A stretch of DNA of 32,000 nucleotides from the NCBI GenBank assembly GCA_048886185.1, contig JBHLKY010000004.1:120001-152000 (forward strand). The letters run 5' to 3'. Both the position numbers and the translations under genes were made by a program. Shown here one piece after another: positions 4,634-25,386 of this stretch (position 1 is the stretch's first letter; each line of letters opens with the position of its first letter). The DNA comes from Candidatus Hermodarchaeota archaeon (GTDB taxonomy: Archaea; Asgardarchaeota; Heimdallarchaeia; Hodarchaeales; Hodarchaeaceae). The notes beneath the pieces are model-generated. The model was given only the letters and a program-made list of their open reading frames with translations. It was not told the origin of the DNA and did not search any database.

Positions 4634-4708
4634 TTTAAATAAATGTAGAAAATATAATAGGTTTGTATCTCTCTAAAATATTGGGTTAATTTTTGTTGGA
4701 ATGATGGG

Positions 4709-5506: not shown

Positions 5507-5542
5507 CAATCCTTTAAGCAGTCTTTTAAGGAGCATAACTAG

Positions 5543-7012: not shown

Positions 7013-7572
7013 AGCTCGATTATAATAATATTAACAAACCATGTAAGTAATTGACACAATTCGTGCTGCCCAGAGACATCCTCCTGATTATGTAAATTTG
7101 GTACTTCAGGTGAAAGAATGGCAAGAATTTTGTAGAAAAATATGATCTTCGACAGTTTATATTGGGCATATCTCACTCATGCTTATACCATGGAAGTTTG
7201 TTTATTGTTAAAAGATATAATGTCGTAAAATAACAGTTTGGAGACGTTTGAATCAAATGTTGTATAACCAACGTTTTTAACCCAAGAAAAGCTTTACAGT
7301 CGCTTTATATACTCTTGATGTAAAAAAATTTCATATAAGGATAATTTAACGAACTCCTCAAGTAGCATTATAAACAGTTGTTCTTTTTCTTTTAGATGGC
7401 ATTTTATCTGTTTAGAATTTGATCTTATGGTTCGATAACACTTATTGAGAATTTGTTGTATTCATATTTGATTTTTTTTGTATTAAATTTGAATGCTCAC
7501 TCCCAAGTGTTTCAACACATAATTCTAGTTCTTCTCTAGTTAAAATTAGCTAATTTATATTAAATGATGAGA

Positions 7573-8335: not shown

Positions 8336-9127
8336 ATGAAAAATAGTATAAAACTTGAAAAAGCGTCAATAGAGGATGCAGAAATACTCGCAAAGATTTC
8401 TAAAAAAGCGTTTGACTCTGATCATTTGGTAGGTTCTCCATTTGGTAAAGGTGGCCCTCCAGGTTACGATTCACCTGATTCATATATCAGGCTTATGAAA
8501 GGTTTTGAATGTTATAAGATTCTAATTAATAGCAAAATTATCGGTTTTATGGCTTATAATCCAAAAAAGAAGACTAATTATGTAATGGAGCGTATTTTTA
8601 TTGACCCTGACTATCATAAACGAGGAATAGCAAGTGAGGCAATGTCCAGCTTATTTAATAAATTTCCAGATGTTGTTTGGACCTTAGAGACTCCAGAATG
8701 GAACAAAAGAACAAGAAATTTCTATAAAAAAAATGGTTTTCGACAAGTAGGTTTGGAACATACCTGTAATCCAGGAGGTAAATGGAAATGTATCTGGTAT
8801 CAAAGGGATTGCGAGGGAGTTGAGATTATCCAAAAAATCGGGGATTTGAAAGATGGTTCAACTGATGTTATTGTAAAGGGTATTGTAAAAAATATAACTG
8901 AAGGTCATAAGGTTAAACTTCAAAGTGATGAGGAAGAATTAACAGTTGCTACTGTTATACTTGAAGATGAAACAGGTCAAATAAAATTTACTCTATGGAA
9001 TAAATTAATTTCATGTGTCAAATTAAATAAACCTTTCAGAATTGATTTTGGAAAAGTTACCTCATACAATAATGAGCTTCAACTGAATGTTGATTGGTAT
9101 GGTAGGATTATTGAAATCACCCAATAA
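8336..9127 (+). CDS. GNAT N-acetyltransferase fused to a C-terminal SSB/RPA-type OB fold
   Basis: N-terminal GNAT: GGPPGYDS, motif A RIFIDPDYHKRGIAS, WTLETPEWNKRTRNFYKKNGF. C-terminal ~100 aa (about 8828-9124): KIGDLKDG..DVIVKGIV...ATVILEDETGQIKFTLWN...GKVTSYNNELQLNV, matching the single-OB crenarchaeal SSB pattern (DETG.I/VK.TLW). Confidence 0.9.
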   Translation: MKNSIKLEKASIEDAEILAKISKKAFDSDHLVGSPFGKGGPPGYDSPDSYIRLMKGFECYKILINSKIIGFMAYNPKKKTNYVMERIFIDPDYHKRGIASEAMSSLFNKFPDVVWTLETPEWNKRTRNFYKKNGFRQVGLEHTCNPGGKWKCIWYQRDCEGVEIIQKIGDLKDGSTDVIVKGIVKNITEGHKVKLQSDEEELTVATVILEDETGQIKFTLWNKLISCVKLNKPFRIDFGKVTSYNNELQLNVDWYGRIIEITQ

Positions 9128-12500: not shown

Positions 12501-13347
12501 CCTCTTTGGTGATGCTGACTTCACTTGGTATTACATTGAAGGAGTAGATATCGAAAATCATACATGGACTTCACTAGTAAAACGGAACTTAACCAATGGA
12601 ACTTATACTCTTTTTGCTTATGGTAACGATACCGCTGGAAACGAAGCAGTAACGAGTATAACCTTTTCAATTGATACCACTAGAGCTACTGTAATTATTG
12701 AATCGCCTATCAGTACCACTTATTCATATAGTACTATCACTATAGCGTTCTCCGGTGATGCTTTATTTTATCTGTACCAAATTCCAGGTGTTGTAAATAT
12801 TGACACTGTTTGGACTTCTCCAATCACATATTATTTTGAAGATGGAACATATACTTTATACGGATCTGGATTCAAAACTATGGGAAAAACAACTTATGTT
12901 AATGTAACATTCACGGTTGATACAACCCCTCCAACAATTATTCTTAATTCTCCGACTAGTTCTAGTATATATAGAAGTAGCAATGTTTCAATTGACATCT
13001 CTGGAAATGCAGAGCGCTATTGGTATTATATCGAAAATATTGATAGTGAGAATCAAACTTGGACACAACCTATGAACCGAAGTTTGAGCGATGGTAACTA
13101 TATAATCCATATTTATGGTAATGATTCCGTAGGTAACATAGCACATTTGAATCTAACTTTTACAATATCAATTCCAATCCCCACATCGATACCAAGTACA
13201 TCTTCGATGATTATGGTATCTGGAACAACTGTAGAAACATCCTCTTCAACCCCGAAGCGAGGAAACTTTCCTAATTATACTGTAGTAATATTAATCTTGA
13301 CAATTTTAGTAATTTTCATTCGAGGACGTAAAAAGAAGCAAATATAA
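9532..13347 (+). CDS. Secreted/surface protein: N-terminal DUF7948-like domain, 7 SBBP beta-propeller repeats, 6 Ig-like repeats, S/T linker, C-terminal TM and basic tail
   Basis: TTG start with AGGAG RBS at 9518-9522; signal peptide ending LSSC; GFIENRGQ, DLYPGIDLRYY and LKYEFIIQPGANP motifs. Seven (F/Y)(S/N)T(Y/F)(L/I)GG...D.G..I.VD...N.YI.G repeats and six ~80-aa ..SP.N...G.Y.L..(Y/F)GND..GN....F.ID modules. Ends GNFPNYTVVILILTILVIFIRGRKKKQI. Confidence 0.92.
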   Translation: MEFLKKRAKTIALLIGMILFLSSCAYLNLLTEINDQKLKDMDDSSSLDTPAVSDLKYPIIKEPLALPFSGFIENRGQIIDKSLAYYYCMGGMIVSFSSSKINFALFSCQDIQQSYFSITFPGSQEVIPIGQGLKSHYINFFIGDFQQTNVLTYNEVWYYDLYPGIDLRYYMSIEGLKYEFIIQPGANPDLIKLLGSSSIKFFIEDKNISFLDSVQEKIYLQDSKLKVYQDDGTDISANFVSKSSEENCYGFRIASFDNSQRLIIDPLILSFSTYLGGSSYDYGYDIVVDSENATYILGQTNSLSFPITPGTINDSFNGGTSDLFIAKLDPVGNNLIFSTYLGGSKEDSGYRIALDTSNNTYITGKTASLDFPTTSNAFSESFNGGEYDIFVTKLNATGNKLVFSTYLGGAEGDYGREIVVDASGNTYITGETESLDFPTTPDTIDDTHNGGTSDAFIVKLNTGGDNLVYSTFIGGGGNDYGYSIAIDDFNNVCITGETWSSNFPVVGAYDNTKGGNTDAFLTKINADGDGFVFSTYLGGSGLDYGYDIAVDSYNNMYITGKTTSVNFPTRNPYSSYRGGYDAFVTKINSAGDDLVFSTFLGGSGEDSGHAITVDVYNNTYITGRTASTDFSTPLNAFNNTHSGSYDAFVTKLDALGNKTIFNTFLGGEGEDFGHGIEVDAYNETYIVGYTRSNDFPTYNAYSSTYSGSYDCFITKFNLDEEPPKINLESPANNTIHNSGKTINFTVRDLHLSNVLFNWDEGINQTLTESFIITLPMGDDQHRLNVYAVDRAGNWAYNYFTFTTDDTAPLVYLISPGNWIYPEIIVDLSGDADHYWYYIDGVDIDNQTWTTAITRNLSNGTYTLHAFGNDTVGNEAYTSVSFTIDTSFALVVIDSPVNASYSSNNTSIELSGDAESYWFYIRGFHDENQTYLPPVTFNLTDGKYVLHAYGNNTVGNVTHVSVTFTIDTIPPEVTIISPINTLYTSGSITINLFGDADFTWYYIEGVDIENHTWTSLVKRNLTNGTYTLFAYGNDTAGNEAVTSITFSIDTTRATVIIESPISTTYSYSTITIAFSGDALFYLYQIPGVVNIDTVWTSPITYYFEDGTYTLYGSGFKTMGKTTYVNVTFTVDTTPPTIILNSPTSSSIYRSSNVSIDISGNAERYWYYIENIDSENQTWTQPMNRSLSDGNYIIHIYGNDSVGNIAHLNLTFTISIPIPTSIPSTSSMIMVSGTTVETSSSTPKRGNFPNYTVVILILTILVIFIRGRKKKQI

Positions 13348-13408: not shown

Positions 13409-16150
13409 TTACCTGCTTGAAGATCCAGTCAATTTATTTAGTTTACCTAAATTAGAATAGTTCTTCTGTTCGTTTTTAATATCATTAAGATCTTTAGCTA
13501 ACTTTAAGGCTGAATTGATAGAATTACGGGCCTTATCCCATTGCTCCAAATCCAGATAAAGACTTCCGATCACGGTTTGCCATCGACACAAATTTCGTCT
13601 GTTCATATATTTCTCTGCACTAGCTATAGCCTTCTCAAGATATTCTACTGCCACTTTCAATTGCCCCTTAGTACTTGTGGTCTCTTGAATTGTTGTACCT
13701 ATATTACCATATAATATTCCTTCTGTTTCTTTATCCATGTTTTTAACATATTTTAAGCATGCTTCATATTCATTAAGGGCCTCTTTGTATTTATCTACCT
13801 TAAAATAGACATCACCAAGTTTCATAAGCCATTTTACTTTATGATCATCCGTTTTCGCCATATTAAATGCTTTTTCAACATTTTCCTTTGCTAGATCAAA
13901 TAAACCAACTTCTTGGTAAGCATCAGCAATATCTCCGTACAAATTTTCTTCTGCTTCTTGATCTCCCATCTTTGAGACAATAGCTACTGCTTTTCGGAAA
14001 TAACCTGTAGCTTGCTTTTCATCAGAAGTAATATGACATTTACCTAGGTTAATTAATTGTTTAGATTGGATTTCTTTGTCATCCCTTTCTTGAGCGATCT
14101 TCAATGCCGTTTCAAAAGAAACAATAGCCTTTTCAATTTTATTTTGGGCAAAAAAAGCATCTCCTAGATTTGAATGTGAAATTCCTTTCAGTTCTGTTAA
14201 AGACAAATCATCAGCGATCTTAATTGCTCGATTAATGAATTTAATTGCTGTTGAATGATCCCCAGTAAGGAGGTATTCTGTACCTAGATTGGTAAGTATT
14301 TCCCCTTCTATTTTCCTATCTAGGTCTGAATGTTTTCTCAAAGCTTTTTCATTTAAACTTATAGCCTGATGTATATCTCCTTGTTTTTGGTAGGTGTAAG
14401 CTAACTTCATTAACCAGATTGCTTCCTCCTTTCTGATTCCCAGGTTCTTGACTATTTTTATTGCTTCTTCATAGTATTTTATTGCTTCATCGATTTTACT
14501 TTCAGCAAGAACAACATTTCCTAATGAGCCTATCCATCTACCTTGGTATAATTTTAAGTCGTTATCCCTGGCTTTATCTAAGGCCTCTTGGTAATGTTTT
14601 CTGGCTGAATTATAATCCCCTGTATCATAATAGACATTGCCAAGGTTACCCAGCTGCTCTACCACCTTGTTATTTTTTGTAGAGATATCCTCGATAGTTT
14701 TGGCTCTTTCTAACGCTTCTTTGTAAGCTTTCAAGGCCTCATCAGAGTTTCCTAATGCTAAATAGGTTTTAGCTATTTGTTCAAAAGAATGAACATGACT
14801 TATAATATCCGCAATTTTCCCAGCAATTTTCTGTGCTTCCTCAAAATAGCCAAGAGCCTTTTTATATCTTATTAAATCATACTCTATTCTTCCAAGGGCT
14901 ATTAACAGTTCAATGTGGGCTTTTTCATTACCTGTCTCCTTTGAAATTTTTAATGCTTTATTAAATTCTGAGCTGGCACTGATGTCATCACCCATTTCCT
15001 CATATGCTCTTCCCAGACCTAGAGAGTATAATGCCTGTCTTTCTTTATCCTTTCTAGTTTGAGCTAATTTTACTGCTGTTTTGAAATGTTCAATAGCAGG
15101 TTCATATTGATTGATTTTAGATTCAGCTTCAGCTAACTTCCCATACCATTCCATGGCATGATCTATGTTAATTTCCTCCGCAATAGTGGCTGCTTTGGTT
15201 AAATGCTTGATAGCTTTCGAGTACTGCTCCATTTCGAAATAGGCTTTTCCTACTTTCCCTAATTGTAGTTCGAAAGCCATTTTATCCTGTGATGATTTCA
15301 GTACTCGCGCAGATTTTTCATAGTTATCTTTAGCTTTTTCCATATCACCACTGGTAAAAAGAACATCAGCTAATAATCCTAAGTAACTTGCTTCTTCTTC
15401 TTTTTCCCTAGTTGTCTCAACAATGTCTATTGCTTGCTTTAAGTTTTCAATCGCTTTAGATAATTCATTCTCGGAAAAATAACTATTTCCAATAAGAGCA
15501 TAACTCATTCCTTCAATTTTATTTGCAGAAACTTCTTTAGCTAATGCTTTTGCTTTTTCATAAAACTCAATAGCTTTGTTAAAATCTCCTTGATTATGAT
15601 AACATTGACCAAGAAAGTTAAGCCATCTCGCTTCACTCCGTTTATCATTCAATTTTTCGCTCAATGACTTCGCTTTATTGAAAGAATTCATTGCTTCCGT
15701 TAATTCATTATTATCTAGATGAAGGATACCTAATTGACCATAACACTTTCTTTCAGCAGCTAAATCCCCGCTATCTTTAGCTAGTGTGGCAGCTTGTAGA
15801 TAAGCTTCTCTAGAATCTTTTAACTTCCCCGCAAGCTTTTGAACATGTCCTAAGAGGATTAAGACTTTAAATTCATTAATTTTATCGCCTAAAGTGCTGT
15901 AAATCTTACTTGAATTCTTGAAATTCTTAACAGAATCAGTTATGTTATCAAGTTTACTATAAACCTCCCCTAATTTACTAAGAATTCTTGCTTCAGCAGG
16001 TTTATCGCTAATCTCTCGTGTTAAAATTACAGCTTCCTCAAAATGTTTTGCAGCACGTTCCAGATAATTTTCCTGAATCTCAAATAAGGAATCCAAATCA
16101 GAGTCAGTTTTTTTAGATTTAATTTCGGTTAAAGTGTGAGGTTCACTCAT
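13409..16150 (-). CDS. Large cytoplasmic TPR-repeat protein (~40-aa repeats, roughly 22 copies; no recognisable effector domain)
   Basis: On the minus strand although the track says +: ATG at 16150, TAA at 13409-13411. Continuous repeats of the type E...LG.LG..Y...G....A...(F/Y)E.AL..A....D; no signal peptide or TM. Confidence 0.93.
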   Translation of the reverse strand: MSEPHTLTEIKSKKTDSDLDSLFEIQENYLERAAKHFEEAVILTREISDKPAEARILSKLGEVYSKLDNITDSVKNFKNSSKIYSTLGDKINEFKVLILLGHVQKLAGKLKDSREAYLQAATLAKDSGDLAAERKCYGQLGILHLDNNELTEAMNSFNKAKSLSEKLNDKRSEARWLNFLGQCYHNQGDFNKAIEFYEKAKALAKEVSANKIEGMSYALIGNSYFSENELSKAIENLKQAIDIVETTREKEEEASYLGLLADVLFTSGDMEKAKDNYEKSARVLKSSQDKMAFELQLGKVGKAYFEMEQYSKAIKHLTKAATIAEEINIDHAMEWYGKLAEAESKINQYEPAIEHFKTAVKLAQTRKDKERQALYSLGLGRAYEEMGDDISASSEFNKALKISKETGNEKAHIELLIALGRIEYDLIRYKKALGYFEEAQKIAGKIADIISHVHSFEQIAKTYLALGNSDEALKAYKEALERAKTIEDISTKNNKVVEQLGNLGNVYYDTGDYNSARKHYQEALDKARDNDLKLYQGRWIGSLGNVVLAESKIDEAIKYYEEAIKIVKNLGIRKEEAIWLMKLAYTYQKQGDIHQAISLNEKALRKHSDLDRKIEGEILTNLGTEYLLTGDHSTAIKFINRAIKIADDLSLTELKGISHSNLGDAFFAQNKIEKAIVSFETALKIAQERDDKEIQSKQLINLGKCHITSDEKQATGYFRKAVAIVSKMGDQEAEENLYGDIADAYQEVGLFDLAKENVEKAFNMAKTDDHKVKWLMKLGDVYFKVDKYKEALNEYEACLKYVKNMDKETEGILYGNIGTTIQETTSTKGQLKVAVEYLEKAIASAEKYMNRRNLCRWQTVIGSLYLDLEQWDKARNSINSALKLAKDLNDIKNEQKNYSNLGKLNKLTGSSSR

Positions 16151-18687
16151 GCTTCTTCAACTCCTTGTGCAAAATATGCATCTCCTAAGCTTTCTAACTC
16201 TTTTATCTGAAATTTCTTATTCTTTGTCTTTTTAAAGATCTTGAGTGCCTCTTTATGATTTTGAATCGCTCTTTTAAAGTTTCCAGCTTTGAAGTAAATA
16301 CGACCAATGGCTCCAAGTCTTTTTCCCTCTTCATGTTTGTCTTTTGCCTTTCGGGCTTTCTTCAAAGCCTTGATTTCGTCTTTCACGGCCGATGGAACCA
16401 TTAATCGACGAGTGATATACCAATAACCTGCACCAGATGCAGCTAGTACCAGAAATCCTGTCATAATGATATTTGGCCAAGGATTAGCCTCAGGTTGAGC
16501 AAGATATGGAGGAATTGGCTGATGGGGGATTGATTGGTTTGTTTGTTCGTCAGCTCTAGGAATATCAGGATTTGCATAAACAGTTACGGTAACATAATCT
16601 TCGACAAATTGGTTAACAATAATTGAGAATCGATATGTACCGACAGGAAGATCATCAATAACAATTTGATGTAGGATTGGTTCCCCAGACACAAATACTC
16701 CAGTGGAGATTACAATTCTACGTGTTCCATTGTCTTGATAGATTGTGTAGGTTCCGCTCTCAGTACTGATTACTGTCCAATTCAAATCTAGAATTTCACC
16801 AATCTTTTCATATTCGTACCACATCTGAGACGACATTTCAGTTCTAATCTCAACAATAATTCCAACAAAAACAAGTACAGTATCATTTACAATGTTTCCA
16901 GAGGTATCACTAGCAAGAAGTGTGTAATTGAATACTGTATACTCATCAACACCTAGGAAACTAATGCTATAATTTATGCTTTCAAGTGAAGCCCAAGAAT
17001 CAGATTCGACTTCTGTACCATTTAAGTATATTAGATAATCCGCAGGATAGTTATCACTTATGGTCCATGAAAGTATTTGATCTTTCGTTCCAAAACCTAA
17101 GTATAAATCATCTGGACTGTCTACTAATTGTGGTAAATCCATTTCAAGGACAGTTACTTGTACCTCATCAATGATCTGCATCCCAGTGCTCTCTGTTAGC
17201 ACTAACCGATAAGAATATGATCCAACTGATAGACTATAATTTAGCTGATGATTTATTAAAATGTTATCTATCCATTCTCCACTATCCGTTAAAATATTAT
17301 CCCTGTAAATCGTATAACTTTGTGCGTTAGGGTCTTTTGCGGTCCATGAAAGAGAATTAGTGATATTTCCTTCTTCAATTATGAGATCTTTGGGTCTAAT
17401 GAAAGATTCAAGAGTAATAAGTTGACCTTCCACAGTGTTTTCTGAATATTGTACATTCTGACTCGTCTCATCAATGTATATCCAATCTTGAATATCAGAT
17501 AAAACATTCTCGATAAGAACAGAATTATTACATCTGATAATGTATAACCCAAAAGAAGATGAAATATCAGTTATTGTGTTGTATCTCACTGCTAAATATT
17601 CATCTCCCTCAGTGAATATACCAATTGCTTCTGAATTTGATGAAATAAGGTTAGAAATGACATTCCATTCAATGAATACTGAATTACTTGTTTTTAGATT
17701 TATCCCATATGTGTAAGTATATGTAGAAGAAAGGTATTGAATGGTATTATTTCCTATAGTTGCCCCAGTACAATGTTCTAAATAGATTCCTTTTACTTCA
17801 AGGAGTCCTGCATCAACTGAGGTAATGTTATTTACTATTATCTGAGAGTGTGGACTGTCATCCAATGAAATTCCAGAAGATGTGAGAGTAGAAGAGAATA
17901 TAGCTGAAATTTTGTTGTTTTTAATTATCATAGTTGAGCTATCATCAACATAAATGCCATGGGAAGATTTTGAACTGATATCACCAATGTAAGACTCAGT
18001 TATATTACTCCCTCGTGATGCTTCTACCAAAATTCCATATGCCATCCCAAAAAGGGATTCTAAATCCTGAATCCTTGTATCTACGATGTTTACTTCTATA
18101 CTATTGTATAAACGGATACCCGAAACATCTCGAGGAGAACCGAGACTCGAAGAAGTCGATGAGATTTGTTCGATTGTATTATTTCTTATTGTTGTATTTT
18201 GAGAGTTCATTAGGTATATAGCTGAGGCCGAATTAGAAGTTGAGATAATGTTAATAATTGTATTATTATAGATCTCGGTATTTGGGCTGTTATCAAGCAT
18301 TATTCCGTATGCATAAGAAGAATTTGTGATGTCTGTAATGTTATTATTTCTAATTATCGAGTTCTCACTGTTTACTAATTCTATTGAAGTATTTCTGTCT
18401 TGATTTTCAATAATACTTCCTGGAGCATTTATAATAGAAATAGATCTTATTGGTTGTTTAATGAATAGATCATCCTCAAAGGTGGGGGAATCCAAGACTA
18501 GTGAATGACCATTTCCATTTAAGGTGAGTCTGAAACCATCTGACTCATGATATAGCAGCACTCTTATCTCTTGCCCATCAACTAGAACAGTTTTCTCACT
18601 CCAAACACTAGTGTGTGAAACATATCGATTTACTGATGCTGCTAAAGCCAGCAATAAGAAAGTAAGGATAATGGTTCTAGGTCTCAT
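16147..18687 (-). CDS. Single-pass membrane protein: right-handed beta-helix (NosD/PbH1-like), 3 Ig-like domains, TM, cytosolic TPR stub
   Basis: On the minus strand although the track says +. Signal peptide MRPRTIILTFLLLALAAS; repeated GI.L..S....I..N.I motifs; three LSWT..D..P..Y.IY.NG-type Ig modules; Pro-rich linker; TM IIMTGFLVLAASGAGYWYI; tail with TPR RLGAIGRIYFKAGNFKRAIQNHKEALKIF. Confidence 0.92.
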   Translation of the reverse strand: MRPRTIILTFLLLALAASVNRYVSHTSVWSEKTVLVDGQEIRVLLYHESDGFRLTLNGNGHSLVLDSPTFEDDLFIKQPIRSISIINAPGSIIENQDRNTSIELVNSENSIIRNNNITDITNSSYAYGIMLDNSPNTEIYNNTIINIISTSNSASAIYLMNSQNTTIRNNTIEQISSTSSSLGSPRDVSGIRLYNSIEVNIVDTRIQDLESLFGMAYGILVEASRGSNITESYIGDISSKSSHGIYVDDSSTMIIKNNKISAIFSSTLTSSGISLDDSPHSQIIVNNITSVDAGLLEVKGIYLEHCTGATIGNNTIQYLSSTYTYTYGINLKTSNSVFIEWNVISNLISSNSEAIGIFTEGDEYLAVRYNTITDISSSFGLYIIRCNNSVLIENVLSDIQDWIYIDETSQNVQYSENTVEGQLITLESFIRPKDLIIEEGNITNSLSWTAKDPNAQSYTIYRDNILTDSGEWIDNILINHQLNYSLSVGSYSYRLVLTESTGMQIIDEVQVTVLEMDLPQLVDSPDDLYLGFGTKDQILSWTISDNYPADYLIYLNGTEVESDSWASLESINYSISFLGVDEYTVFNYTLLASDTSGNIVNDTVLVFVGIIVEIRTEMSSQMWYEYEKIGEILDLNWTVISTESGTYTIYQDNGTRRIVISTGVFVSGEPILHQIVIDDLPVGTYRFSIIVNQFVEDYVTVTVYANPDIPRADEQTNQSIPHQPIPPYLAQPEANPWPNIIMTGFLVLAASGAGYWYITRRLMVPSAVKDEIKALKKARKAKDKHEEGKRLGAIGRIYFKAGNFKRAIQNHKEALKIFKKTKNKKFQIKELESLGDAYFAQGVEEA
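16161..16165 (-). promoter_or_regulatory. Candidate Shine-Dalgarno AGGAG for the TPR gene
   Basis: Minus strand reads AAGGAG-TTGAAGAAGC-ATGA. It could also be coincidental Gln-Gly-Val codons of the upstream gene. Confidence 0.5.
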
Positions 18688-18696
18688 TTCATCTCA

Positions 18697-18701
18697 CTCC
18701 T
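18697..18701 (-). promoter_or_regulatory. Shine-Dalgarno AGGAG for the beta-helix/TM/TPR gene, overlapping the upstream TAG stop
   Basis: Minus strand reads TAGGAGTGAGATGAAATG; 12-nt intergenic gap. Confidence 0.7.
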
Positions 18702-21700
18702 AAACTAAAGCACGTCTCCTTCGAATTATCCAGTACGCAATGAAAGCCGCACTTGCTAATGCAACAATTGCAGCAAATCCTATGGCAATGATTAGCCCCC
18801 AATCAATCTCCACTTTAACGACTCTGAAAAAGATACTGTTCTTTAGTAATACGGACCCGATATTTCTATCAGGGGATGTTGGATAGCTATAATCCAGCGC
18901 CATGCCGAATACTTGTAATTCATACTCTCCTTCTTTAAAGTTAATTGCACTATGAGTCCATCGAGAATAACCTTGATATTTTAGGCTATAATTCTCACTC
19001 CAACCATCTGTAGGAGTCTGGGGACTTGCAGGAATTGTAGTTGGAATAGATAAGGGGGAGGAAGTTTGAGTTGTAGCTGAGACAGTAGTTGTCAGATTTG
19101 TGATTTCACTTCCAGAAGTCTTTCGAAAACGGAAATATACATTATTTCGATCTAATCTTGTTAAATTCAACATCTCAAAGGAAATTGAGCCTACCGAATA
19201 TGATCCATTGTGTATAGGTGATTTCATTTGCAAGGGGGAAGTCAAACGAAGAACGGCTGCTAAGAATTCTTCTTCAGATGTGTATACAAGTGGATCAGTT
19301 CTTATCCATAATTCTAATGGATCACTGTACCCATCGAGATCGGTATCAGCGGTATAAGGTAGGGTTCCATAAACAAGAATCTCATCACCGTCTAAAAGAC
19401 CATCAAAATCAGAATCGGGATTCCGATAATCAAGAAATCCTCCATGCTCATATCCATCAGAAATATTATTGTTATTTCGGTCAATATCTAGTCTATACTT
19501 ATTATAGGTGTTATATTCATCTCCATCAGAAATAAGGTCATGATCATAATCACGCTCGTAACCATCTAAAATTCCATTATTATTAACGTCAGGATTATAT
19601 GGATTATATCGATAATCACCATCATCAGCAAAGACTTCTAATCCATCCGGCCAACCATCACCATCACTGTCAGGATCAAGTGCATTGGTAAAGTAGGAAG
19701 GATCATATTCACTACCCTCGGCACCAATTCCACCAGGTGTGACATGAGTAACTTCCTGATTATCTTTTATTCCATCACCATCAGTGTCACTTTTTCTTGG
19801 ATCAGTATGATGTGCGTAAATTTCGTCCCAATCAGAAAGTGTATCATTATCTGAATCCACAAGATCAGGTCTCAAATTATTATCTACTTCATATTTATCT
19901 CCTAACTTATCACCGTCACTATCTGGATCAACAGGAGATGTAAGTAAGGGAAATACTGCTTGGTACGCAATGAATGGGAATATTAAGATTTCAATTTCGC
20001 CAATCACGAGTTCTTTACCATCAATTAATCCATCATCATCTGTATCGTTATCAAGTACATCTAATGGAATATTCACAAAATTCGGTATATCACCTGTGGC
20101 TAAATACAATTCCCATGTGTCAAAAAGTGAATCATTGTCACTATCTATTGATTTTGGATTTGTACCAAATTGTATCTCATCAAAATCTGTCCAAAGAAAT
20201 GTTGGATCACCATTTTCATCAGGACTCATGATAGAATCATAGTCTGAATCGATGTTATTTGGATCAGTTTCATATATAAAGATCTCTGGGCCGTCACGGA
20301 GGCCATCTCCATCACTATCGGGATTCATTGGATCAGTACCAAATTCAATTAGTTCATCCCGATCAGTAATATCATCATTATCCGAATCTTCATCAACAGG
20401 GTCAGTACCATAAATATAAATCTCTGCATAGTCTTTTATTCCATCTCCATCACTATCTCCACTATGTGGATTTGAGTGACTAAAGAATAACTCCCAATAG
20501 TCCGTTACACCGTCAAAATCAGTATCAGGCATATGTGGATTTGTGTTGAATATGAAGAATTCGTCACCATCTAGAATGAGATCATTATCTGAGTCAGGGT
20601 CGCTTGGATTCAAGCCCAATGCTATTTCAATCCCATCAGGGAGGGAATCGCCATCTGTATCGGGATTGTAGAAATTTGTTGTCACATTTCTTTCTGCTAG
20701 TAATGTACCCTCAAGTCCATCGATCAATCCATCATCATCTGAGTCAGCATCTAGAGGATCACTCGCAGGGTCGAGGCTTAATTCATATCCATCTGAATTT
20801 AAGAAACCACCTGCTCTTGGTTCTCTTCCCTGACCTGTGTCTCCATCACTATCAGGATTACATGGATTTGTTTGGAAGATCTTTGATACTGGTTCATTGT
20901 CTTCAATGATTGTTGCAGCGATGCCTCTGACTTCAACACCATCTCTCATGTCACGAGTATATACCTTGGATTCTGAAGTGCCTGCGATAGACCCATCATA
21001 ATATTGATAGAAAGAGTCATCATCAGTATCGTTGTCTAATGGGTGTGTATAGCCATCATTAAAGAGTAGCATCGGTTTATCTGATTCCTCTGGGTAATTA
21101 TTGGGATTACCCCACCAAGGGCCAAATTCTCCTTCTTGGCCATCAAGAAGTCCATCATTATCAGTATCAGGATTCAATGGATCAGTACGATTATCGTAGA
21201 TTTGATTTCCAATCTTTACTGCTGTAACTGAAGGAGTAATAGGCCAAGTGTTGTTTTGTTGAGAAGTATTGACTTGGGAAGGAATAACCCAGTCAGTATT
21301 AACCTCGAAGTAATCAGTTAAACCATCTGAATCTGTATCTCGTGAATTTGGATTGGTTCCATAAAGTAATACTTCCTCACCATCTAACAATCCGTCCATA
21401 TCGGTGTCAGGTAAGTTTGGATCGGCCTTGGGAGGTGAGTGAACACCATACCACTCAATGAAATCACTTAGGCCATCGCCATCTGTGTCGTATTTTCCTG
21501 GATCAGTTTTACTCACTTTTAATTCATATTTGTCACTGAGTCCATCACCATCAGTGTCAGCCTTATAGGGATCTAAGGATGTGCTTTCGTTTTCTTGGGC
21601 ATCGCTTAATCCATCATTATCAGAGTCATATCCTAGCGCATCTTCTTTGAGTTCTGGACTGTCAGGTGGGGGTAAGAGAAGTAGAGGGAAACCTGGTGGT

Positions 21701-24700
21701 CGGTATTGAAATCCAATTTCAAAGTCCCAGAAAAGGAACGTAAGTGTGAGTGTAGCCCATAAAATTATATCAAGTGTTATTGTAAAGGGCCCAATGTTAC
21801 CGGGAGTTAAATCTTGGTGAAATATCAAATAAATATCTAATCCAATCTTGAAAACGATACCAACAATTCTTAGATCTAAACCAATTGTGATATATGCACC
21901 TATACCTAAAGTTAAGGTTAGTGATCCTTGTGCTGGTTCTCCATTATGTGCGGCTTTCTGGTAGATCTCGAATGCAGCAGACAACCATATTGTTAGGGTA
22001 AGAACATCTAGACCAATATATGCCATTGCTTTGTTAACTGTACCAGCAACCGATGCTCCTGCCCCTGTGGCATATAAGATGAGCTCTATGAGGGTAATAT
22101 CCTTTGAAACCTTAAATCCTATACTAAAATGCCATTCAAGTATTTTCATAAATCCCTCGGGATCAAATCCACCAGATGAAAAGGCAAATAACTGGATTGA
22201 AAACCCAATCGATCCCCATACTTCGAGATCTATACCTAGAGGAGCAAGAACTGCTCCGAATACCCCTCCACCGCCTGAAGATACCGTTGAAGCAGTTAAG
22301 GAAGCAGAAAAGACTGGTGCAAAGGTTATAAATGTTATGATCTTCTTGAAGAATTCTGGAATATCGAGTTTGAAGTCATCAATTCCTGTAAATATGATTT
22401 CCTCTATCCATGTTCTGAAAGCTTCATTATCCCATTGGAAGTTAAGACCAATAGATAGGTTGAACGAAAGTTTGATTCCAATAACATCTCCTCCTGGGAG
22501 AGGGATATCTCCTCCAAGAGATAGTAGTGGTTTGGCTGAAATCTTTGCTGCAATTTTGCCTGTAAATTCACTTATTAAATCTGCTAAGAATGAGGCGAGT
22601 AAAGTTTTAAATTCTTTAAAAATAAAATCAATACCACCACTGAGGAGATCTTTTATCATGAAAAGGTAATATATCCCCTTTTCTGCTAGAGAAAGAAGTG
22701 CATTTGAGATAATCGGAAATTTATCCTTTAATGTAGATGTAACTAAATCTTGAAGTTGCTGACATGTTTGAGTTGCATTGAATATTGCATCACCACCTAG
22801 AATGTTCTTGCCAATTATTCCAGTGAAAAGACTCTGAATTATTTGCATCGTGGCTGTACCGTCTATCCCTAGATAGTTAAAGAGTAATACTCCTGCTTGC
22901 ATTGCTGCTGATCGTAAAAATGACGTGATTGAGTTTCCTTTAGCTGAAAGGAGTACGGTTGTTATAGTTAATATTCCATCTGCAAATACCTGAACTCCTT
23001 TACTCAGAGTTTTCTTTATAGTGTCCGTTGTGTTTAATCCATCAACCCATATAGAGAATAGGCCATATACGGCATTTCTCCCGATTTTAATTATCTCCCA
23101 TTGTATTTCTTTAAGTTCTAGAGTTTTGTTTTCTCCCATGGTTTCTATGTCTTTTTCTGCTAATTTACTTGCATCGTCGACTAAAAGTAATTGAGCTGCG
23201 GTATTAGATTTCCCTAATGCAATTATCCCAAAAATAGTCTCAAGGACTAAGAAAAATACTTTCTCTTTTGTGTCTGACACAGTGGTATTAACTGCAGTAA
23301 TGTTTAGAAATTGTTTACTTACATCTTTTATATCAGAAGCAAATGGTTCTGACATACTTGGTATGCAAATTGCTCCTAACCATGCTAGGGCATCTATAAG
23401 TGTTTGAGCTTCTGGGGAGTCAGTGGGAAGAGAATTTTCAGTCATATTACTAGTAATTAGCTGTTTTAGCTGGTTTCTATCTGTTAATTGGTCTCTAGAA
23501 GCATCAGCAATAATAGAAACGATATCTTCTGAAAATAGGGTGACACGTCTATCGTTTGCTGTTAGAGTTACTCCTAACATCGGGATAGAAGAGTTTATTA
23601 CATTGAAAAATGATTTTTGATTCGCCTTCAGAGCATCAATTTCACTAGCGGTTGTCCAATATTCCAGCGCTTTTCCAGGAAGAGTGAATGCATCAAAGAA
23701 CGCCATTGCTGAACGATAGAATTGACTAATTGTTCCTATAGCACTTTCTTCTCTTGAAGTCAATGTTTGATTTGTCATTTTTGAGAATAAATATTCAACA
23801 AAATCTGGAATAATCTCCATTAAATCATCAAAATCACCAGTTGTGAAAGCTTTAATTAAGGGAGAGAGAAATCCCATAATTTTGCCTATCTCTTTTAATA
23901 GCGTGCTATTGGTTCCCCCAAGGACATCAGACCACCAAGCATACGTGCTAGCATTGAGGATCTTATCTATGGCAAAACCTACAATCGTATTTAGGGCATT
24001 AAACTTCTTTCCTTCTTCTTCAGCTTTTTCTTTTTCACTAATCATCAATTCTGCAAGTTCAACACCATTTAGCAGTGTTCCTTTCAAAACTTTGATCATG
24101 GTTGTTATGATCGTTGAATTTGATATATCCCCGATTACCGTGAAAATAGTCTCAATGACTGATCCAGCAAAATCAGTTATATCAGTGGCTGATCCGCGAA
24201 TCAAGTAAAGTGCATCCACAACAAGTGGTAGAAATGGTTTAATTTTCTCTGAAATTGGTGCATTATCAGTAATGAGCTTGATCAGTTTTTTAATAGTCCC
24301 CTTAACATCTCCTTCTCCCTCATCAGAAGAAGTAAATATCAAAGCAATATCTTTAATGGTGTTACAGATATCAATTGCTGTTTCTGGATCTAATCCAAGT
24401 GCACTTCCACCGAACTTAATCAATACCGATAGAATAGCATCAATAACAGCAGCTGTTGGCCCCTCTATCCCTGAAAACAGAGGGATATCAGATATTTTGA
24501 ATGCTGCTTCTTCTTCAGTTGCGGTCTCTTCATTGAAAATTCGAACTCTGGTTTCAGGAACAGGAATGGTATCATTGTCAAAACGTCTGATTGATTGATC
24601 AGGCATGACTTGATATGCATCATACCAACTTTCCATCTTATCATCCCAGGCCTGAGCTTTTGCTACAAGATCTTCTTCACCAAGGGGATTCACTATTTTT

Positions 24701-25386
24701 CGAGGATCCATAATTCCATTTAGAATACTATTAATATTCTCCGCGAAGTACTTTACTCCTAAGATTCTGAAATCTTCAGCAACTCTTTGATATCCTAAAC
24801 CAGGATCTGCTCCTAGTATTTCACCGATTTCCCAAAGATAATAGAAGTAAGATTGTTCTGCACCTATAACTTGACTTCCTTCAATATGGATTTTTGTTTC
24901 ATTAACAGGTACAAGTGCGCGTAACTGATCCGTTGAACCAGAACCAAAAACATGGAATGTTTGCGGTTCTATGACTGCTTCAGCGATTTCAGACCACTTT
25001 ATTAGTTTCCCACCCATCCAGACACCATCAAGCTTTCCATTAATGAAATATAGCTTTATCCAATAGGTATTGTCGAGTATTGTTGATCGTAGTTCCTTCC
25101 AATTTAATACAGGAATAAGATGGACATTATGATAGATAATACCTGCTGATGTAAACACATTTAGTGCTGTGTTAATTAACAAGCTGTGGTTGTTGTCATA
25201 AATGACTGCAATTTTTCTCGGTAAATCAAAGCCAGGGTATTTTTCATCAAAAGGTGGGATTTCTTTTATCCGATTGATTTCAGCTCTTTGGGCAGCAACA
25301 CTTCCCACACTTAAGAGAATAATAAGTATGATAAAAGTTGAGTAAACAACGTTCCTATAACGAATGATCTTCTTTGCATCAATCAT
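18700..25386 (-). CDS. Giant (2228 aa) membrane-anchored surface protein: signal peptide, alpha/beta domain, amphipathic helical region, amphipathic beta-strand region, TSP3-like Ca-binding repeat array, Ig-like domain, C-terminal TM
   Basis: On the minus strand although the track says +. The start is reassigned from TTG 25476 to ATG 25386 (MIDAKKIIRY...): it forms an ATGA overlap with the upstream stop, has AGGAGG 8 nt upstream and exposes a normal signal peptide. Ends with TM WGLIIAIGFAAIVALASAAFIAYWII and RRRR. Confidence 0.9.
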   Translation of the reverse strand: MIDAKKIIRYRNVVYSTFIILIILLSVGSVAAQRAEINRIKEIPPFDEKYPGFDLPRKIAVIYDNNHSLLINTALNVFTSAGIIYHNVHLIPVLNWKELRSTILDNTYWIKLYFINGKLDGVWMGGKLIKWSEIAEAVIEPQTFHVFGSGSTDQLRALVPVNETKIHIEGSQVIGAEQSYFYYLWEIGEILGADPGLGYQRVAEDFRILGVKYFAENINSILNGIMDPRKIVNPLGEEDLVAKAQAWDDKMESWYDAYQVMPDQSIRRFDNDTIPVPETRVRIFNEETATEEEAAFKISDIPLFSGIEGPTAAVIDAILSVLIKFGGSALGLDPETAIDICNTIKDIALIFTSSDEGEGDVKGTIKKLIKLITDNAPISEKIKPFLPLVVDALYLIRGSATDITDFAGSVIETIFTVIGDISNSTIITTMIKVLKGTLLNGVELAELMISEKEKAEEEGKKFNALNTIVGFAIDKILNASTYAWWSDVLGGTNSTLLKEIGKIMGFLSPLIKAFTTGDFDDLMEIIPDFVEYLFSKMTNQTLTSREESAIGTISQFYRSAMAFFDAFTLPGKALEYWTTASEIDALKANQKSFFNVINSSIPMLGVTLTANDRRVTLFSEDIVSIIADASRDQLTDRNQLKQLITSNMTENSLPTDSPEAQTLIDALAWLGAICIPSMSEPFASDIKDVSKQFLNITAVNTTVSDTKEKVFFLVLETIFGIIALGKSNTAAQLLLVDDASKLAEKDIETMGENKTLELKEIQWEIIKIGRNAVYGLFSIWVDGLNTTDTIKKTLSKGVQVFADGILTITTVLLSAKGNSITSFLRSAAMQAGVLLFNYLGIDGTATMQIIQSLFTGIIGKNILGGDAIFNATQTCQQLQDLVTSTLKDKFPIISNALLSLAEKGIYYLFMIKDLLSGGIDFIFKEFKTLLASFLADLISEFTGKIAAKISAKPLLSLGGDIPLPGGDVIGIKLSFNLSIGLNFQWDNEAFRTWIEEIIFTGIDDFKLDIPEFFKKIITFITFAPVFSASLTASTVSSGGGGVFGAVLAPLGIDLEVWGSIGFSIQLFAFSSGGFDPEGFMKILEWHFSIGFKVSKDITLIELILYATGAGASVAGTVNKAMAYIGLDVLTLTIWLSAAFEIYQKAAHNGEPAQGSLTLTLGIGAYITIGLDLRIVGIVFKIGLDIYLIFHQDLTPGNIGPFTITLDIILWATLTLTFLFWDFEIGFQYRPPGFPLLLLPPPDSPELKEDALGYDSDNDGLSDAQENESTSLDPYKADTDGDGLSDKYELKVSKTDPGKYDTDGDGLSDFIEWYGVHSPPKADPNLPDTDMDGLLDGEEVLLYGTNPNSRDTDSDGLTDYFEVNTDWVIPSQVNTSQQNNTWPITPSVTAVKIGNQIYDNRTDPLNPDTDNDGLLDGQEGEFGPWWGNPNNYPEESDKPMLLFNDGYTHPLDNDTDDDSFYQYYDGSIAGTSESKVYTRDMRDGVEVRGIAATIIEDNEPVSKIFQTNPCNPDSDGDTGQGREPRAGGFLNSDGYELSLDPASDPLDADSDDDGLIDGLEGTLLAERNVTTNFYNPDTDGDSLPDGIEIALGLNPSDPDSDNDLILDGDEFFIFNTNPHMPDTDFDGVTDYWELFFSHSNPHSGDSDGDGIKDYAEIYIYGTDPVDEDSDNDDITDRDELIEFGTDPMNPDSDGDGLRDGPEIFIYETDPNNIDSDYDSIMSPDENGDPTFLWTDFDEIQFGTNPKSIDSDNDSLFDTWELYLATGDIPNFVNIPLDVLDNDTDDDGLIDGKELVIGEIEILIFPFIAYQAVFPLLTSPVDPDSDGDKLGDKYEVDNNLRPDLVDSDNDTLSDWDEIYAHHTDPRKSDTDGDGIKDNQEVTHVTPGGIGAEGSEYDPSYFTNALDPDSDGDGWPDGLEVFADDGDYRYNPYNPDVNNNGILDGYERDYDHDLISDGDEYNTYNKYRLDIDRNNNNISDGYEHGGFLDYRNPDSDFDGLLDGDEILVYGTLPYTADTDLDGYSDPLELWIRTDPLVYTSEEEFLAAVLRLTSPLQMKSPIHNGSYSVGSISFEMLNLTRLDRNNVYFRFRKTSGSEITNLTTTVSATTQTSSPLSIPTTIPASPQTPTDGWSENYSLKYQGYSRWTHSAINFKEGEYELQVFGMALDYSYPTSPDRNIGSVLLKNSIFFRVVKVEIDWGLIIAIGFAAIVALASAAFIAYWIIRRRRALV
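19320..21630 (-). repeat. Array of ~27 D(S/T)DxDG(L)xDxxE TSP3-like calcium-binding protein repeats
   Basis: Counted by eye from DSDNDGLSDAQE to DTDLDGYSDPLE; most are preceded by a T(D/N)P...P linker, and several carry long insertions. Confidence 0.9.

What the first reader, a model, noticed from the sequence alone, without database searches (positions are those of the whole stretch)
16000..16410. A TPR repeat appears split across the gene junction: one 1759-aa receptor broken in two, or helix complementation between two proteins
Seen: the membrane protein's very Lys-rich tail has one full TPR and then ends on an A-type helix (KELESLGDAYFAQG-VEEA*). The next gene begins with an acidic linker and then a B-type helix (NYLERAAKHFEEAVILTREISD) before its first complete repeat. 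Inserting one base at GAA GC^ATG joins them seamlessly (GVEEAMSEPH...), giving a TPR with a long A-B loop, as occurs in LGN/GPSM-type TPR arrays. Hypothesis (a): genuine fission with translational coupling (AGGAG 10 nt upstream), where the soluble TPR docks on the receptor by completing the split repeat. Since it also ends on an A helix, it could in principle extend head-to-tail. Hypothesis (b): a 1-nt deletion or assembly error in a single beta-helix-Ig-TM-(~24 TPR) receptor. Caveat: DLDSLFEIQE could be a degenerate intramolecular A helix.
Basis: partly seen in the sequence, partly recalled or inferred. Interest (0 to 1): 0.72.

Follow-up and report, generated by a model that had tools for sequence, protein, structure and literature searches.

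The report
Asgard receptor and TPR scaffold sharing a split repeat
Two overlapping genes of an Asgard archaeon encode a single-pass surface receptor and a 913-residue cytoplasmic TPR scaffold; they are truly separate genes, and they probably join because the receptor's last helix and the scaffold's first helix together form one TPR repeat.

Summary
On the minus strand, an 846-aa membrane protein (16147-18687) and a 913-aa all-TPR protein (13409-16150) overlap by ATGA, with AGGAG 10 nt upstream of the start.

The "one broken 1759-aa gene" reading is refuted:
- The same split occurs in 12 independent loci, down to about 35-40% identity.
- The junction geometry differs among them (4-nt overlap, 8-nt overlap, 13-nt gap).
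- An independent metagenome contig crosses the junction with no indel.

The receptor tail always ends on a canonical TPR A helix (L831, G835, Y838, G842 conserved). The scaffold starts with a roughly 25-residue low-confidence linker, then a B helix with small residues at the TPR 20/27 positions, and no predicted A helix of its own.

A complex model packs these two helices antiparallel as one TPR (ipSAE 0.82 three times; best control 0.01). The controls were not TPR proteins, and nothing has been measured.

Two distant syntenic homologues carry the TPR array fused to the receptor, and their second repeat aligns collinearly across the split.

The two genes co-occur in the same 6 of 41 related genomes. 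A variant with no partner found has lost the helix's glycines.

Whether the ancestor was fused or split is unresolved. Function is inferred: a surface receptor that recruits an LGN-like scaffold.

The parts
16147..18687 (-). P0001: 846-aa type I membrane protein. It has a signal helix, a right-handed beta-helix (about residues 80-425), three beta-sandwich (Ig-like) domains (430-703), a linker, a TM helix and an 89-aa cytoplasmic tail.
   Evidence: Translation. Pfam Beta_helix 1.4e-20 and NosD 3.9e-18, both above cut-off. AF2 model with mean pLDDT 80.6.
16402..16482 (-). Transmembrane helix of P0001 (residues 736-762).
   Evidence: AF2 helix 736-762 in a hydrophobic stretch, followed by the conserved RRLMVPS motif.
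16225..16338 (-). The one complete TPR of the tail (A1 784-800, B1 804-821).
   Evidence: AF2 helices. Pfam TPR_12 1.1e-4, which is below the curated cut-off.
16165..16218 (-). Terminal A-type helix of P0001 (residues 824-841), with the TPR signature L831 (position 4), L834/G835 (7/8), Y838 (11) and G842 (15).
   Evidence: L831 and G835 are invariant, and Y838 and G842 nearly invariant, in 17-18 orthologues. This helix is the interface of the complex model.
16161..16165 (-). AGGAG Shine-Dalgarno-like motif inside the Gly-Val codons, 10 nt before the P0002 start.
   Evidence: Present as AGGAG in the window and nine other junctions printed, with a GGAGG/AGGAGG-type motif in L018 and L024. GGAG is enriched about 12-fold at -12 to -15 before the first ATG of 1871 long ORFs of this genome.
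16147..16150 (-). ATGA stop/start overlap between P0001 and P0002.
   Evidence: Orthologues have ATGA, GTGA, ATGAnTGA or GTGACTGA; L024 has a 13-nt gap.
13409..16150 (-). P0002: 913-aa soluble protein made almost wholly of about 22 TPR_12-type repeats with a 40-residue period.
   Evidence: Pfam TPR_12 4.4e-98, 14 stretches. AF2 of residues 1-300 with mean pLDDT 88.7. Closest solved fold is the LGN/GPSM2/Pins TPR domain, TMq 0.75.
16070..16150 (-). N-terminal linker of P0002 (residues 1-27), with a conserved M[ST][ED]P..T.IK start and an acidic stretch.
   Evidence: pLDDT below 50 for residues 1-7 and 10-24. Variable in length among orthologues. Not in the modelled interface.
16010..16069 (-). 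First helix of P0002 (residues 28-47), a B-type TPR helix with A/S33 (position 20), F/Y37 (24) and A40 (27), followed by DKP.
   Evidence: Alignment A2. No partner A helix in the model of P0002 alone. Contacts tail residues 824-845 antiparallel in the complex model. Aligns with the B helix of TPR2 of the fused homologue P0070.
15890..16003 (-). First complete TPR of P0002 (residues 50-87). Its A helix also touches the receptor's terminal helix in the model.
18700..25386 (-). Upstream gene of the same cluster: a giant protein of about 2230-2260 aa with bacterial TSP3 repeats. It ends 12 nt before the P0001 start.
   Evidence: Pfam TSP3_bac 5.8e-24. The same neighbour precedes the receptor in L018, L022, L024, L025 and L026. 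Junction sequence.

Best explanation
These are two genuine, co-transcribed genes of an Asgard archaeon (Heimdall/Hodarchaeales-type by the names of the closest database proteins).

The first encodes a type I surface protein: a beta-helix and three Ig-like domains outside, one TM helix, and an 89-residue Lys-rich tail inside. The second encodes a 913-residue LGN-like TPR scaffold.

A ribosome finishing the receptor restarts on the overlapping ATG, helped by an AGGAG at the spacing typical of this genome. The scaffold is therefore made in fixed proportion to the receptor and next to its tail at the membrane (inferred).

The tail ends on a TPR A helix. The scaffold begins, after a flexible linker, on a TPR B helix that has no A partner of its own. 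The two helices pack antiparallel and form one TPR in trans, so that the tail's one and a half repeats and the scaffold's roughly 22 repeats make one continuous superhelix anchored to the membrane (modelled, not measured).

Distant syntenic homologues have the TPR array fused to the receptor. The split therefore lies in the A-B loop of the second repeat of what is, in those lineages, a single chain.

The likely role, inferred from architecture and neighbours, is to couple a surface adhesion or ligand-binding apparatus to a cytoplasmic interaction platform.
For: Separate genes:
- The split is present in 12 loci at about 35-79% identity, each with a start codon at the junction and an AGGAG or GGAGG/AGGAGG-type motif upstream.
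- The junction types differ among loci: frame -1 for ATGA, frame +1 for ATGAnTGA, and a 13-nt gap in L024.
- A 563-nt contig from an independent study spans 15839-16401 with no gaps.
- GGAG is enriched about 12-fold at -12 to -15 genome-wide.

Split repeat:
- The tail helices are A1, B1 and A2.
- L831 and G835 are invariant, and Y838 and G842 nearly invariant.
- The first helix of P0002 keeps a small residue at position 33, an aromatic at 37 and Ala at 40.
- No intramolecular A helix appears in the model of P0002 alone.

Complex model:
- ipSAE was 0.82 in all three runs, against 0.01 for the best of 3 controls. That mark was reached by 58 of 80 solved complexes and 2 of 110 mismatched pairs.
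- The runs share at least 80% of their contacts, and the partner's pLDDT is 86.
- The interface is tail 67-88 (P0001 824-845) against P0002 26-66. The lowest-error pairs are A33 with Y838/G835, F37 with G835/L831, and A40 with L831, which is the canonical position 8/20/24/27 packing.

Fused homologues:
- P0070 (1511 aa) and P0118 carry the same ectodomain, a TM helix and about 9 TPRs in one chain, in the same gene neighbourhood, with no separate TPR gene.
- The A helix of their TPR2 aligns with the tail's A2, and its B helix with P0002 residues 35-49. The collinear alignments sum to about 134 bits; the best shifted register scores 124 bits.
- The best match to the fused TPR domain in G000, G010 and G012 is the P0002 orthologue.

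Co-occurrence:
- The receptor and scaffold orthologues are found in the same 6 of 41 genomes.
- The G008 variant has no scaffold orthologue found, and its helix has Glu in place of both glycines. It nests inside the split clade.

Literature: overlapping gene pairs are translationally coupled in archaea and often encode subunits of heteromers (PMC6728339, PMC10666635).
Against: - No binding, expression or localisation data exist.
- The controls were unrelated proteins, not other TPR ends. A model trained on continuous TPR arrays may stack any A helix on any free B helix, and halves of a split gene tend to pass by likeness to solved structures.
- A C-terminal A-type capping helix is normal for TPR domains, so the tail could be a self-contained mini-domain.
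- In L018 the scaffold's N-terminus carries a plausible A helix of its own.
- In L024 the tail continues for about 35 residues after the A helix and the genes do not overlap.
- Repeat alignments are ambiguous. The collinear register is only about as good as the shifted ones.
- The direction of change (fission or fusion) is unresolved.
Confidence: 0.62

Rival explanations
1. These are two real, coupled genes, but there is no split repeat. The receptor tail is a self-contained mini TPR (one repeat plus the usual C-terminal capping helix), and the scaffold simply has a degenerate first repeat. If the two proteins interact at all, they do so in another way, for example the Lys-rich tail or a third protein lying in the scaffold's concave groove.
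For: - Capping (solvating) A-type helices are standard at the C-terminal end of TPR arrays; this is established knowledge, and the LGN capping helix is described in PMC6525239.
- P0002 itself also ends on an A-type helix.
- The L018 scaffold has its own candidate A helix.
- The L024 tail extends beyond the A helix.
- The complex controls were not TPR decoys.
Against: - A capping helix has no need for the invariant Gly at position 8, which exists to let helix A cross helix B of the same repeat. Here it is invariant, and it is lost only in the variant with no partner found.
- The first helix of P0002 has no intramolecular partner in the model.
- The fused homologues join exactly these two helices by a 9-residue loop.
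- The complex model scored 0.82 against 0.01 for the best control.
Confidence: 0.28
2. This is a single 1759-aa receptor gene broken by a 1-nt deletion or an assembly error at GAA GC^ATG.
For: One inserted base would join the two frames without a stop. Fused homologues exist in other lineages.
Against: - Twelve independent loci from different samples and assemblers are split at the same place, with a start codon there.
- The frame offset differs among them: -1, +1, or a 13-nt gap.
- An independent contig crosses the junction without an indel.
- No long protein with this tail was found, though that search is weak.
Confidence: 0.01
3. Programmed ribosomal frameshifting at the overlap makes a fused receptor-TPR chain from part of the transcripts.
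For: The overlap puts the two frames side by side. In L015 and L016 the downstream frame is open for 7 codons before the ATG.
Against: - The required shift would be -1 in some orthologues and +1 in others, and impossible across the L024 gap.
- In the window and in L013, L014 and L006, stop codons lie 2-3 codons upstream of the ATG in the P0002 frame.
- No conserved slippery site is present.
- The ATG/GTG/TTG start and the SD-type motif are what is conserved.
Confidence: 0.02
4. In addition to, or instead of, docking on the receptor, P0002 polymerises head to tail, with its own C-terminal A-type helix completing the N-terminal B helix of the next molecule.
For: P0002 ends on an A-type helix (...EQKNYSNLGKLNKLTG). 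Its closest structural relative, LGN, forms rings through contacts between its N-terminal helix and its capping helix plus TPR8 (PMC6525239).
Against: The strict co-occurrence and overlap with the receptor gene point to the receptor tail as the designed partner.
Confidence: 0.1

Closest known systems
LGN/GPSM2/Pins TPR domain (PDB 6hc2, 3sf4, 5a7d, 4wne)
   Same: It is the closest solved fold to P0002 1-300 (Foldseek E 1e-12, TMq 0.70-0.76, 21-24% identity). Both have 40-residue TPR_12-type repeats. [quoted passage not shown] LGN is a cortical scaffold recruited to the membrane.
   Different: LGN has 8 repeats and a GoLoco tail, whereas P0002 has about 22 repeats and nothing else. LGN reaches the membrane through Galpha-i, not through a receptor tail. 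In LGN the flanking helices form a four-helix bundle between identical chains. Here a single canonical repeat would be shared between two different gene products. Likeness of fold does not establish common descent.
Translationally coupled overlapping gene pairs (ATGA, termination-reinitiation) in archaea and bacteria
   Same: The genes are co-directional with a 4-nt stop/start overlap and an SD-type motif inside the upstream gene. Such pairs are coupled in Haloferax and E. coli and often encode subunits of heteromers (PMC6728339, PMC10666635). Operon neighbours tend to assemble with each other (PMC4742563).
   Different: Coupling has not been measured for this pair or in any Asgard archaeon. 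Orthologues also use 8-nt overlaps and, in one case, a 13-nt gap.
Fused homologues P0070 (1511 aa) and P0118 (metagenomic; a Rosetta-stone pair)
   Same: They have the same ectodomain (beta-helix plus three Ig-like domains, about 30% identity), a TM helix, a cytoplasmic TPR array, and the same neighbours: a TSP3 giant and an FG-GAP/LTD giant.
   Different: The TPR array is in the same chain and short (about 9 repeats, 350 aa). TPR2 has a 9-residue A-B loop where the window has a stop, a start and a linker of about 27 residues. No separate TPR gene follows. Such forms were not found in 400 representative genomes of the phylum (a weak search).
NosD / right-handed beta-helix proteins (PF05048, PF13229)
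   Same: The P0001 ectodomain scores above both Pfam cut-offs. The model's beta-helix resembles the AlgE6 A-module fold (TMt 0.52).
   Different: There are no nos genes nearby. The protein is a membrane-anchored multidomain surface protein with a cytoplasmic tail. The NosD name on database relatives describes the fold only.

Membership tests
Tetratricopeptide repeat proteins (Pfam TPR_12 / TPR_1 clan) | Score above the curated Pfam cut-off | tested here: met
   P0002 scores TPR_12 4.4e-98 (322 bits against a cut-off of 30.1) and TPR_1 6.2e-69. The P0001 tail alone is below cut-off (TPR_12 22.8 bits against 30.1), as expected for one and a half repeats.
Tetratricopeptide repeat proteins (Pfam TPR_12 / TPR_1 clan) | Antiparallel A/B helix hairpins stacked into a right-handed superhelix | tested here: met
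   AF2 of P0002 1-300 gives 14 helices of about 17 residues with 3-residue turns, pLDDT above 90. Its best fold matches are TPR domains. The tail forms helices 784-800, 804-821 and 824-841.
Tetratricopeptide repeat proteins (Pfam TPR_12 / TPR_1 clan) | Signature residues of one repeat (large at 4/7/11, Gly at 8 and 15, small at 20 and 27, aromatic at 24) found across the gene junction | tested here: met
   The tail supplies L831, L834, G835, Y838 and G842. P0002 supplies A/S33, F/Y37 and A40. All are conserved in alignments A1-A3.
Translationally coupled overlapping gene pair | Same strand, stop and start codons overlapping by 4 nt (or another very short distance) | tested here: met
   ATGA at 16147-16150. 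Eleven of the 12 loci overlap by 4 or 8 nt.
Translationally coupled overlapping gene pair | Downstream translation depends on upstream translation | not testable with these tools
   This needs reporter fusions with an upstream premature stop, or ribosome profiling. No RNA run was listed for this stretch.
Gene fission/fusion (Rosetta-stone) pair | A homologue exists in which both parts lie in one chain, in the same order | tested here: met
   P0070 and P0118 lie in the same synteny.
Gene fission/fusion (Rosetta-stone) pair | The breakpoint is collinear with the fused form | tested here: inconclusive
   The collinear alignments (c70 9-69 with tail 20-80; c70 84-362 with P0002 35-320) sum to about 134 bits. 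The best shifted register scores 124 bits. Repeats make the register ambiguous.
LGN/GPSM2/Pins family | TPR domain followed by GoLoco motifs that bind Galpha-i | tested here: not met
   P0002 is TPR from residue 28 to its end. No GoLoco family appears among the 25 Pfam families listed, and one weaker family was not shown. The resemblance is of fold only.
NosD (nitrous oxide reductase accessory protein) | Periplasmic beta-helix protein encoded with nosZ/nosF/nosY | tested here: not met
   The Pfam NosD domain scores above cut-off. However, the neighbours are giant TSP3, FG-GAP/lectin/LTD and TPR proteins, not nos genes.

The most novel reading that the evidence does not exclude
A conserved Asgard module in which a surface adhesion-type receptor recruits a giant LGN-like TPR scaffold by sharing one TPR repeat between two polypeptides. 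The scaffold would be made at the membrane by termination-reinitiation on the receptor's own mRNA. This would be a natural case of repeat-protein complementation in trans, used as a receptor-to-cytoplasm coupling device in the closest prokaryotic relatives of eukaryotes. Both fused and split forms exist in nature.
Probability: 0.4. Interest if true: 0.65.

Novelty: new variant of a known kind. Interest (0 to 1): 0.5.

Why it matters
Gene fission, overlapping coupled genes and TPR scaffolds are each ordinary. What is unusual is that the breakpoint lies inside a single repeat, with helix A at the end of a membrane protein and helix B at the start of a soluble one. That arrangement is conserved across a whole family, and fused relatives exist.

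If the docking is real, it matters for three reasons:
- It is a clean natural example of in-trans completion of a solenoid repeat as a protein-protein interface.
- It gives a concrete, easily tested physical link between the large surface proteins of Asgard archaea and a cytoplasmic scaffold.
- It provides a ready-made pair (an 89-aa tail and a 300-aa TPR fragment) for biochemistry and structure work.

It also warns annotators not to merge the two genes.

Tried and rejected
- **Paralogues in the own genome.** tblastn of the tail and of the P0002 N-terminus found only the genes themselves.
- **Longer proteins with the P0001 tail.** The word-index search (lengths 'longer', residues 600-846) found nothing. 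This is weak evidence; the fused forms were found only by the exhaustive search.
- **P0002 N-terminus against the word index.** It returned one orthologue (P0170) and many generic TPR proteins, and was of little use.
- **Fused forms in representative genomes.** None were found in 83 genomes of the class or 400 of the phylum. Only 3-18 candidates were scored per genome, so this does not show absence.
- **16S rRNA, to read the anti-SD sequence.** RF01959 found nothing in G000 or in the single-contig relative G010. I replaced this with a genome-wide count of SD motifs.
- **RNA evidence.** No RNA holder was listed, so nothing can be said on expression.
- **Raw reads.** Only Logan contigs were available. 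X5 and X7 do not bridge the junction. Only X6 (independent) and X1 (possibly the source) do.
- **Fold search of the whole P0001 model.** It gave only generic Ig/FN3-tandem and beta-helix matches, with TM-scores too low to name a relative.
- **Context of the TPR-less homologue P0160.** The contig ends 242 nt after the gene, so it is uninformative.
- **Tree of ectodomains.** The backbone is unresolved, so neither fission nor fusion can be inferred.
- **Literature.** I found no paper describing a TPR repeat split between two gene products, nor this Asgard module. This is absence in the held library only.
Full report
**What is there.** Both genes lie on the minus strand. P0001 (16147-18687, 846 aa) ends ...KELESLGDAYFAQGVEEA*. 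P0002 (13409-16150, 913 aa) begins MSEPHTLTEIKSKKTDSDLDSLFEIQENYLERAAKHFEEAVILTREISDKP. The stop and start overlap as ATGA (16147-16150). AGGAG lies at 16161-16165, 10 nt before the ATG. One inserted base would join the two frames.

**The two proteins.**
- P0001 scores above the Pfam cut-offs for Beta_helix and NosD.
- Its AF2 model (17-sequence alignment, mean pLDDT 80.6) shows an N-terminal signal-type helix, a beta-helix (about 80-425), three beta-sandwich domains (430-703), a low-confidence linker and a TM helix (736-762).
- The model then shows four cytoplasmic helices: 766-780, 784-800 (A1), 804-821 (B1) and 824-841 (A2).
- P0002 is TPR throughout (TPR_12 4.4e-98, 14 stretches).
- Modelled alone (13-sequence alignment, mean pLDDT 88.7), residues 1-7 and 10-24 of P0002 1-300 have pLDDT below 50. 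The first helix (DSSP 20-46, confident from about 28) is a single straight helix. Regular 17-residue helices follow.

**Organism and neighbourhood.**
- The genome (4.84 Mb, 75 contigs, about 35% G+C) is an Asgard archaeon. The closest database proteins are labelled Heimdallarchaeota, Hodarchaeales, Promethearchaeota or Hermodarchaeota MAGs.
- Upstream on the same strand lie a 2199-aa FG-GAP/C-type lectin/LTD protein and a roughly 2250-aa TSP3-repeat protein.
- P0001 starts 12 nt after the TSP3 gene, behind another AGGAG.
- P0002 is the last gene on that strand. A convergent DUF7948/SBBP/Ig-like gene follows.
- The order TSP3 giant, receptor, TPR protein recurs in L018, L024, L025 and L026. Receptor followed by TPR protein also recurs in L020 and L021, where the upstream product carries no family hit on record.

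**It is not a broken gene.**
- Orthologous receptor genes in five related genomes (L013-L016, L006) and six metagenomic or MAG contigs (L018, L020, L021, L024, L025, L026) are all followed by a TPR gene. The receptor always stops after the same A helix, and the TPR gene starts at M/V/L-[ST]-[EDK].
- Receptor identity to P0001 runs from about 60% down to about 33%. Identity within the tail alone is 40-79%.
- The junction differs among loci: ATGA or GTGA (4 nt), ATGAnTGA or GTGACTGA (8 nt), and in L024 a TAG, 13 nt containing AGGAGG, then TTG. The downstream frame is therefore -1, +1 or separated, depending on the locus.
- No single-base error and no conserved frameshift site can produce that pattern.
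- A 563-nt contig from an independent study (X6) covers 15839-16401 with four substitutions and no gap. The possible source run is identical.
- The word-index search found no long protein carrying this tail.
- In 1871 long ORFs of this genome, GGAG peaks at -12 to -15 from the first ATG, at about 12 times background. The junction motif (GGAG at -14) sits where this organism's SD sites sit.
- Overlapping pairs of this kind are translationally coupled in archaea and often encode subunits of heteromers (PMC6728339, PMC10666635).

**Is one repeat shared between the two proteins? Five lines of evidence bear on this.**

1. *Signature residues.* In 17-18 orthologues, L831 and G835 of the last helix are invariant, and Y838 and G842 nearly so. 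These are TPR positions 4, 8, 11 and 15. In 13 scaffold orthologues the first helix keeps Ala/Ser at 33, Phe/Tyr at 37 and Ala at 40 (positions 20, 24 and 27), followed by DKP. Gly8 with small residues at 20 and 27 is what lets helices A and B of one repeat cross closely (established TPR knowledge).

2. *Complex model.* The tail (89 aa, alignment A1) was folded with P0002 1-300 (alignment A2).
   - ipSAE was 0.82 in all three runs, against 0.01 for the best of three controls.
   - That mark was reached by 58 of 80 solved complexes and 2 of 110 mismatched pairs.
   - The runs agree in at least 80% of contacts, and the partner's pLDDT is 86.
   - The interface is exactly P0001 824-845 against P0002 26-66.
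   - The register is antiparallel: A33 with Y838/G835, F37 with G835/L831, A40 with L831/I828.
   - There are extra contacts to the next A helix (52-66), as in a continuous array.

3. *Fused relatives.* The exhaustive search found P0070 (1511 aa) and P0118 (1078 aa, N-terminally incomplete).
   - Both have the same ectodomain, a TM helix and about 350 residues of TPR in one chain.
   - Both sit in the same neighbourhood, with no separate TPR gene.
   - Their TPR2 reads A helix (LQLANLGHAGIVLA), a 9-residue loop, then B helix (QNLEQALSISRQIKD).
   - BLAST aligns the A helix with the tail's A2 and the B helix with P0002 35-49.
   - The best match to the fused TPR domain in G000, G010 and G012 is the P0002 orthologue.

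4. *Co-occurrence.* Among 41 related genomes, the receptor orthologue and the scaffold orthologue are found in the same six.

5. *A natural control.* G008 (99% complete) has a receptor variant (37% identity) with no scaffold orthologue found and no ORF over 120 aa downstream. Its last helix reads RELASLEEAFTAKE, with both glycines replaced by Glu, and runs into an acidic extension. In the ectodomain tree it nests within the split clade, next to P0041 (93/90). This suggests secondary loss of the partner together with decay of the signature. It is one case only.

**What weakens the reading.**
- The controls were unrelated proteins, not TPR ends. A predictor may stack any free A helix on any free B helix, and halves of a split gene tend to pass by likeness to solved arrays.
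- A C-terminal A-type capping helix is normal for TPR domains, and P0002 has one too.
- The scaffold in L018 (partner of P0019; 1116 aa) has a plausible A helix of its own (YYRKLAHIILKNGD) before the B helix.
- In L024 the tail runs on for about 35 residues after the A helix, and the genes do not overlap.
- Repeat alignments are register-ambiguous: about 134 bits for the collinear register against 124 bits for the best shifted one.
- The tree backbone is a polytomy, so fission and fusion cannot be told apart.
- There are no expression, binding or localisation data.

**Mechanism proposed.**
- *Shown:* two separate genes; a conserved overlap and SD-type motif; conserved half-repeat signatures; fused homologues; co-occurrence.
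- *Modelled:* in-trans completion of TPR2.
- *Inferred:* the ribosome that finishes the tail at the membrane reinitiates on P0002, so the scaffold's N-terminal B helix emerges beside the free A helix. The result is a membrane-anchored superhelix of about 24 repeats that serves as a cytoplasmic platform for a surface apparatus built from the neighbouring giant proteins.
- The end-to-end contacts of the flanking helices of LGN (PMC6525239) are the closest described analogue.

**Verdict.** The broken-gene hypothesis is refuted. The split-repeat docking hypothesis is supported by every test that could be run here, but it remains unmeasured. I rate it a new variant of known kinds (gene fission, coupled overlapping genes, TPR scaffolds), with interest 0.5.

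Noticed in passing
L017 (G008:C49), minus strand, about 4498-7314: A same-genus receptor variant (939-aa open frame, 37% identity). Its terminal helix has lost both TPR glycines (RELASLEEAFTAKE) and runs into an acidic tail. No ORF over 120 aa lies in the roughly 3 kb downstream, and no P0002 orthologue was found in this 99%-complete genome.
   Followed up: partly
L024 7724-7740 (contig carrying P0031): This is the only locus where the receptor and TPR genes do not overlap: TAG, 13 nt with AGGAGG, then a TTG start. The receptor tail here has an extra stretch of about 35 residues after the A helix (…KALKEEEASKVDRHLQQRVLGSIRTSIERITKD), which might be a helix of its own.
   Followed up: no
L018 8714-12064 (partner of P0019): The most divergent scaffold is 1116 aa rather than about 910. 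Its N-terminus carries a candidate A helix (YYRKLAHIILKNGD) before the conserved B helix, so the first repeat may be complete in this lineage.
   Followed up: no
L016 2321-4261 (G012:C248): The open frame of the P0002 orthologue in G012 stops after about 647-654 aa, against about 912 elsewhere. Weaker TPR similarity continues beyond the stop. This may be a truncation, a frameshift or an assembly problem.
   Followed up: no
window 8336-9127 (+): A 263-aa protein combining a GNAT acetyltransferase domain (1.3e-11) with an Ssb-like OB fold (5.9e-7), by Pfam.
   Followed up: no
window 18700-31982 (-): Two giant proteins lie upstream in the same orientation: about 2200 aa with FG-GAP, a C-type lectin and a lamin-tail domain, and about 2250 aa with bacterial TSP3 repeats. 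The TSP3 giant precedes the receptor in five other loci (L018, L022, L024, L025, L026). An FG-GAP/LTD giant follows the fused forms in L022 and L023.
   Followed up: partly
window 9532-13347 (+); L020 5591-8800: A 1271-aa DUF7948/SBBP beta-propeller/Ig-like protein lies convergent to P0002. A homologue follows the TPR gene on the same strand in L020, so it may belong to the same module.
   Followed up: no
G000 and G010 (whole genomes): The archaeal SSU rRNA model RF01959 found no match in the window's genome, nor in the single-contig 4.9-Mb relative G010, although it matched all 14 control genomes. The rRNA genes may be unassembled, withheld or interrupted.
   Followed up: no
L026 10919-12541 (-): A 792-aa Ras/Roc-family GTPase gene lies convergent, just downstream of the TPR gene, in the P0059 locus.
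   Followed up: no
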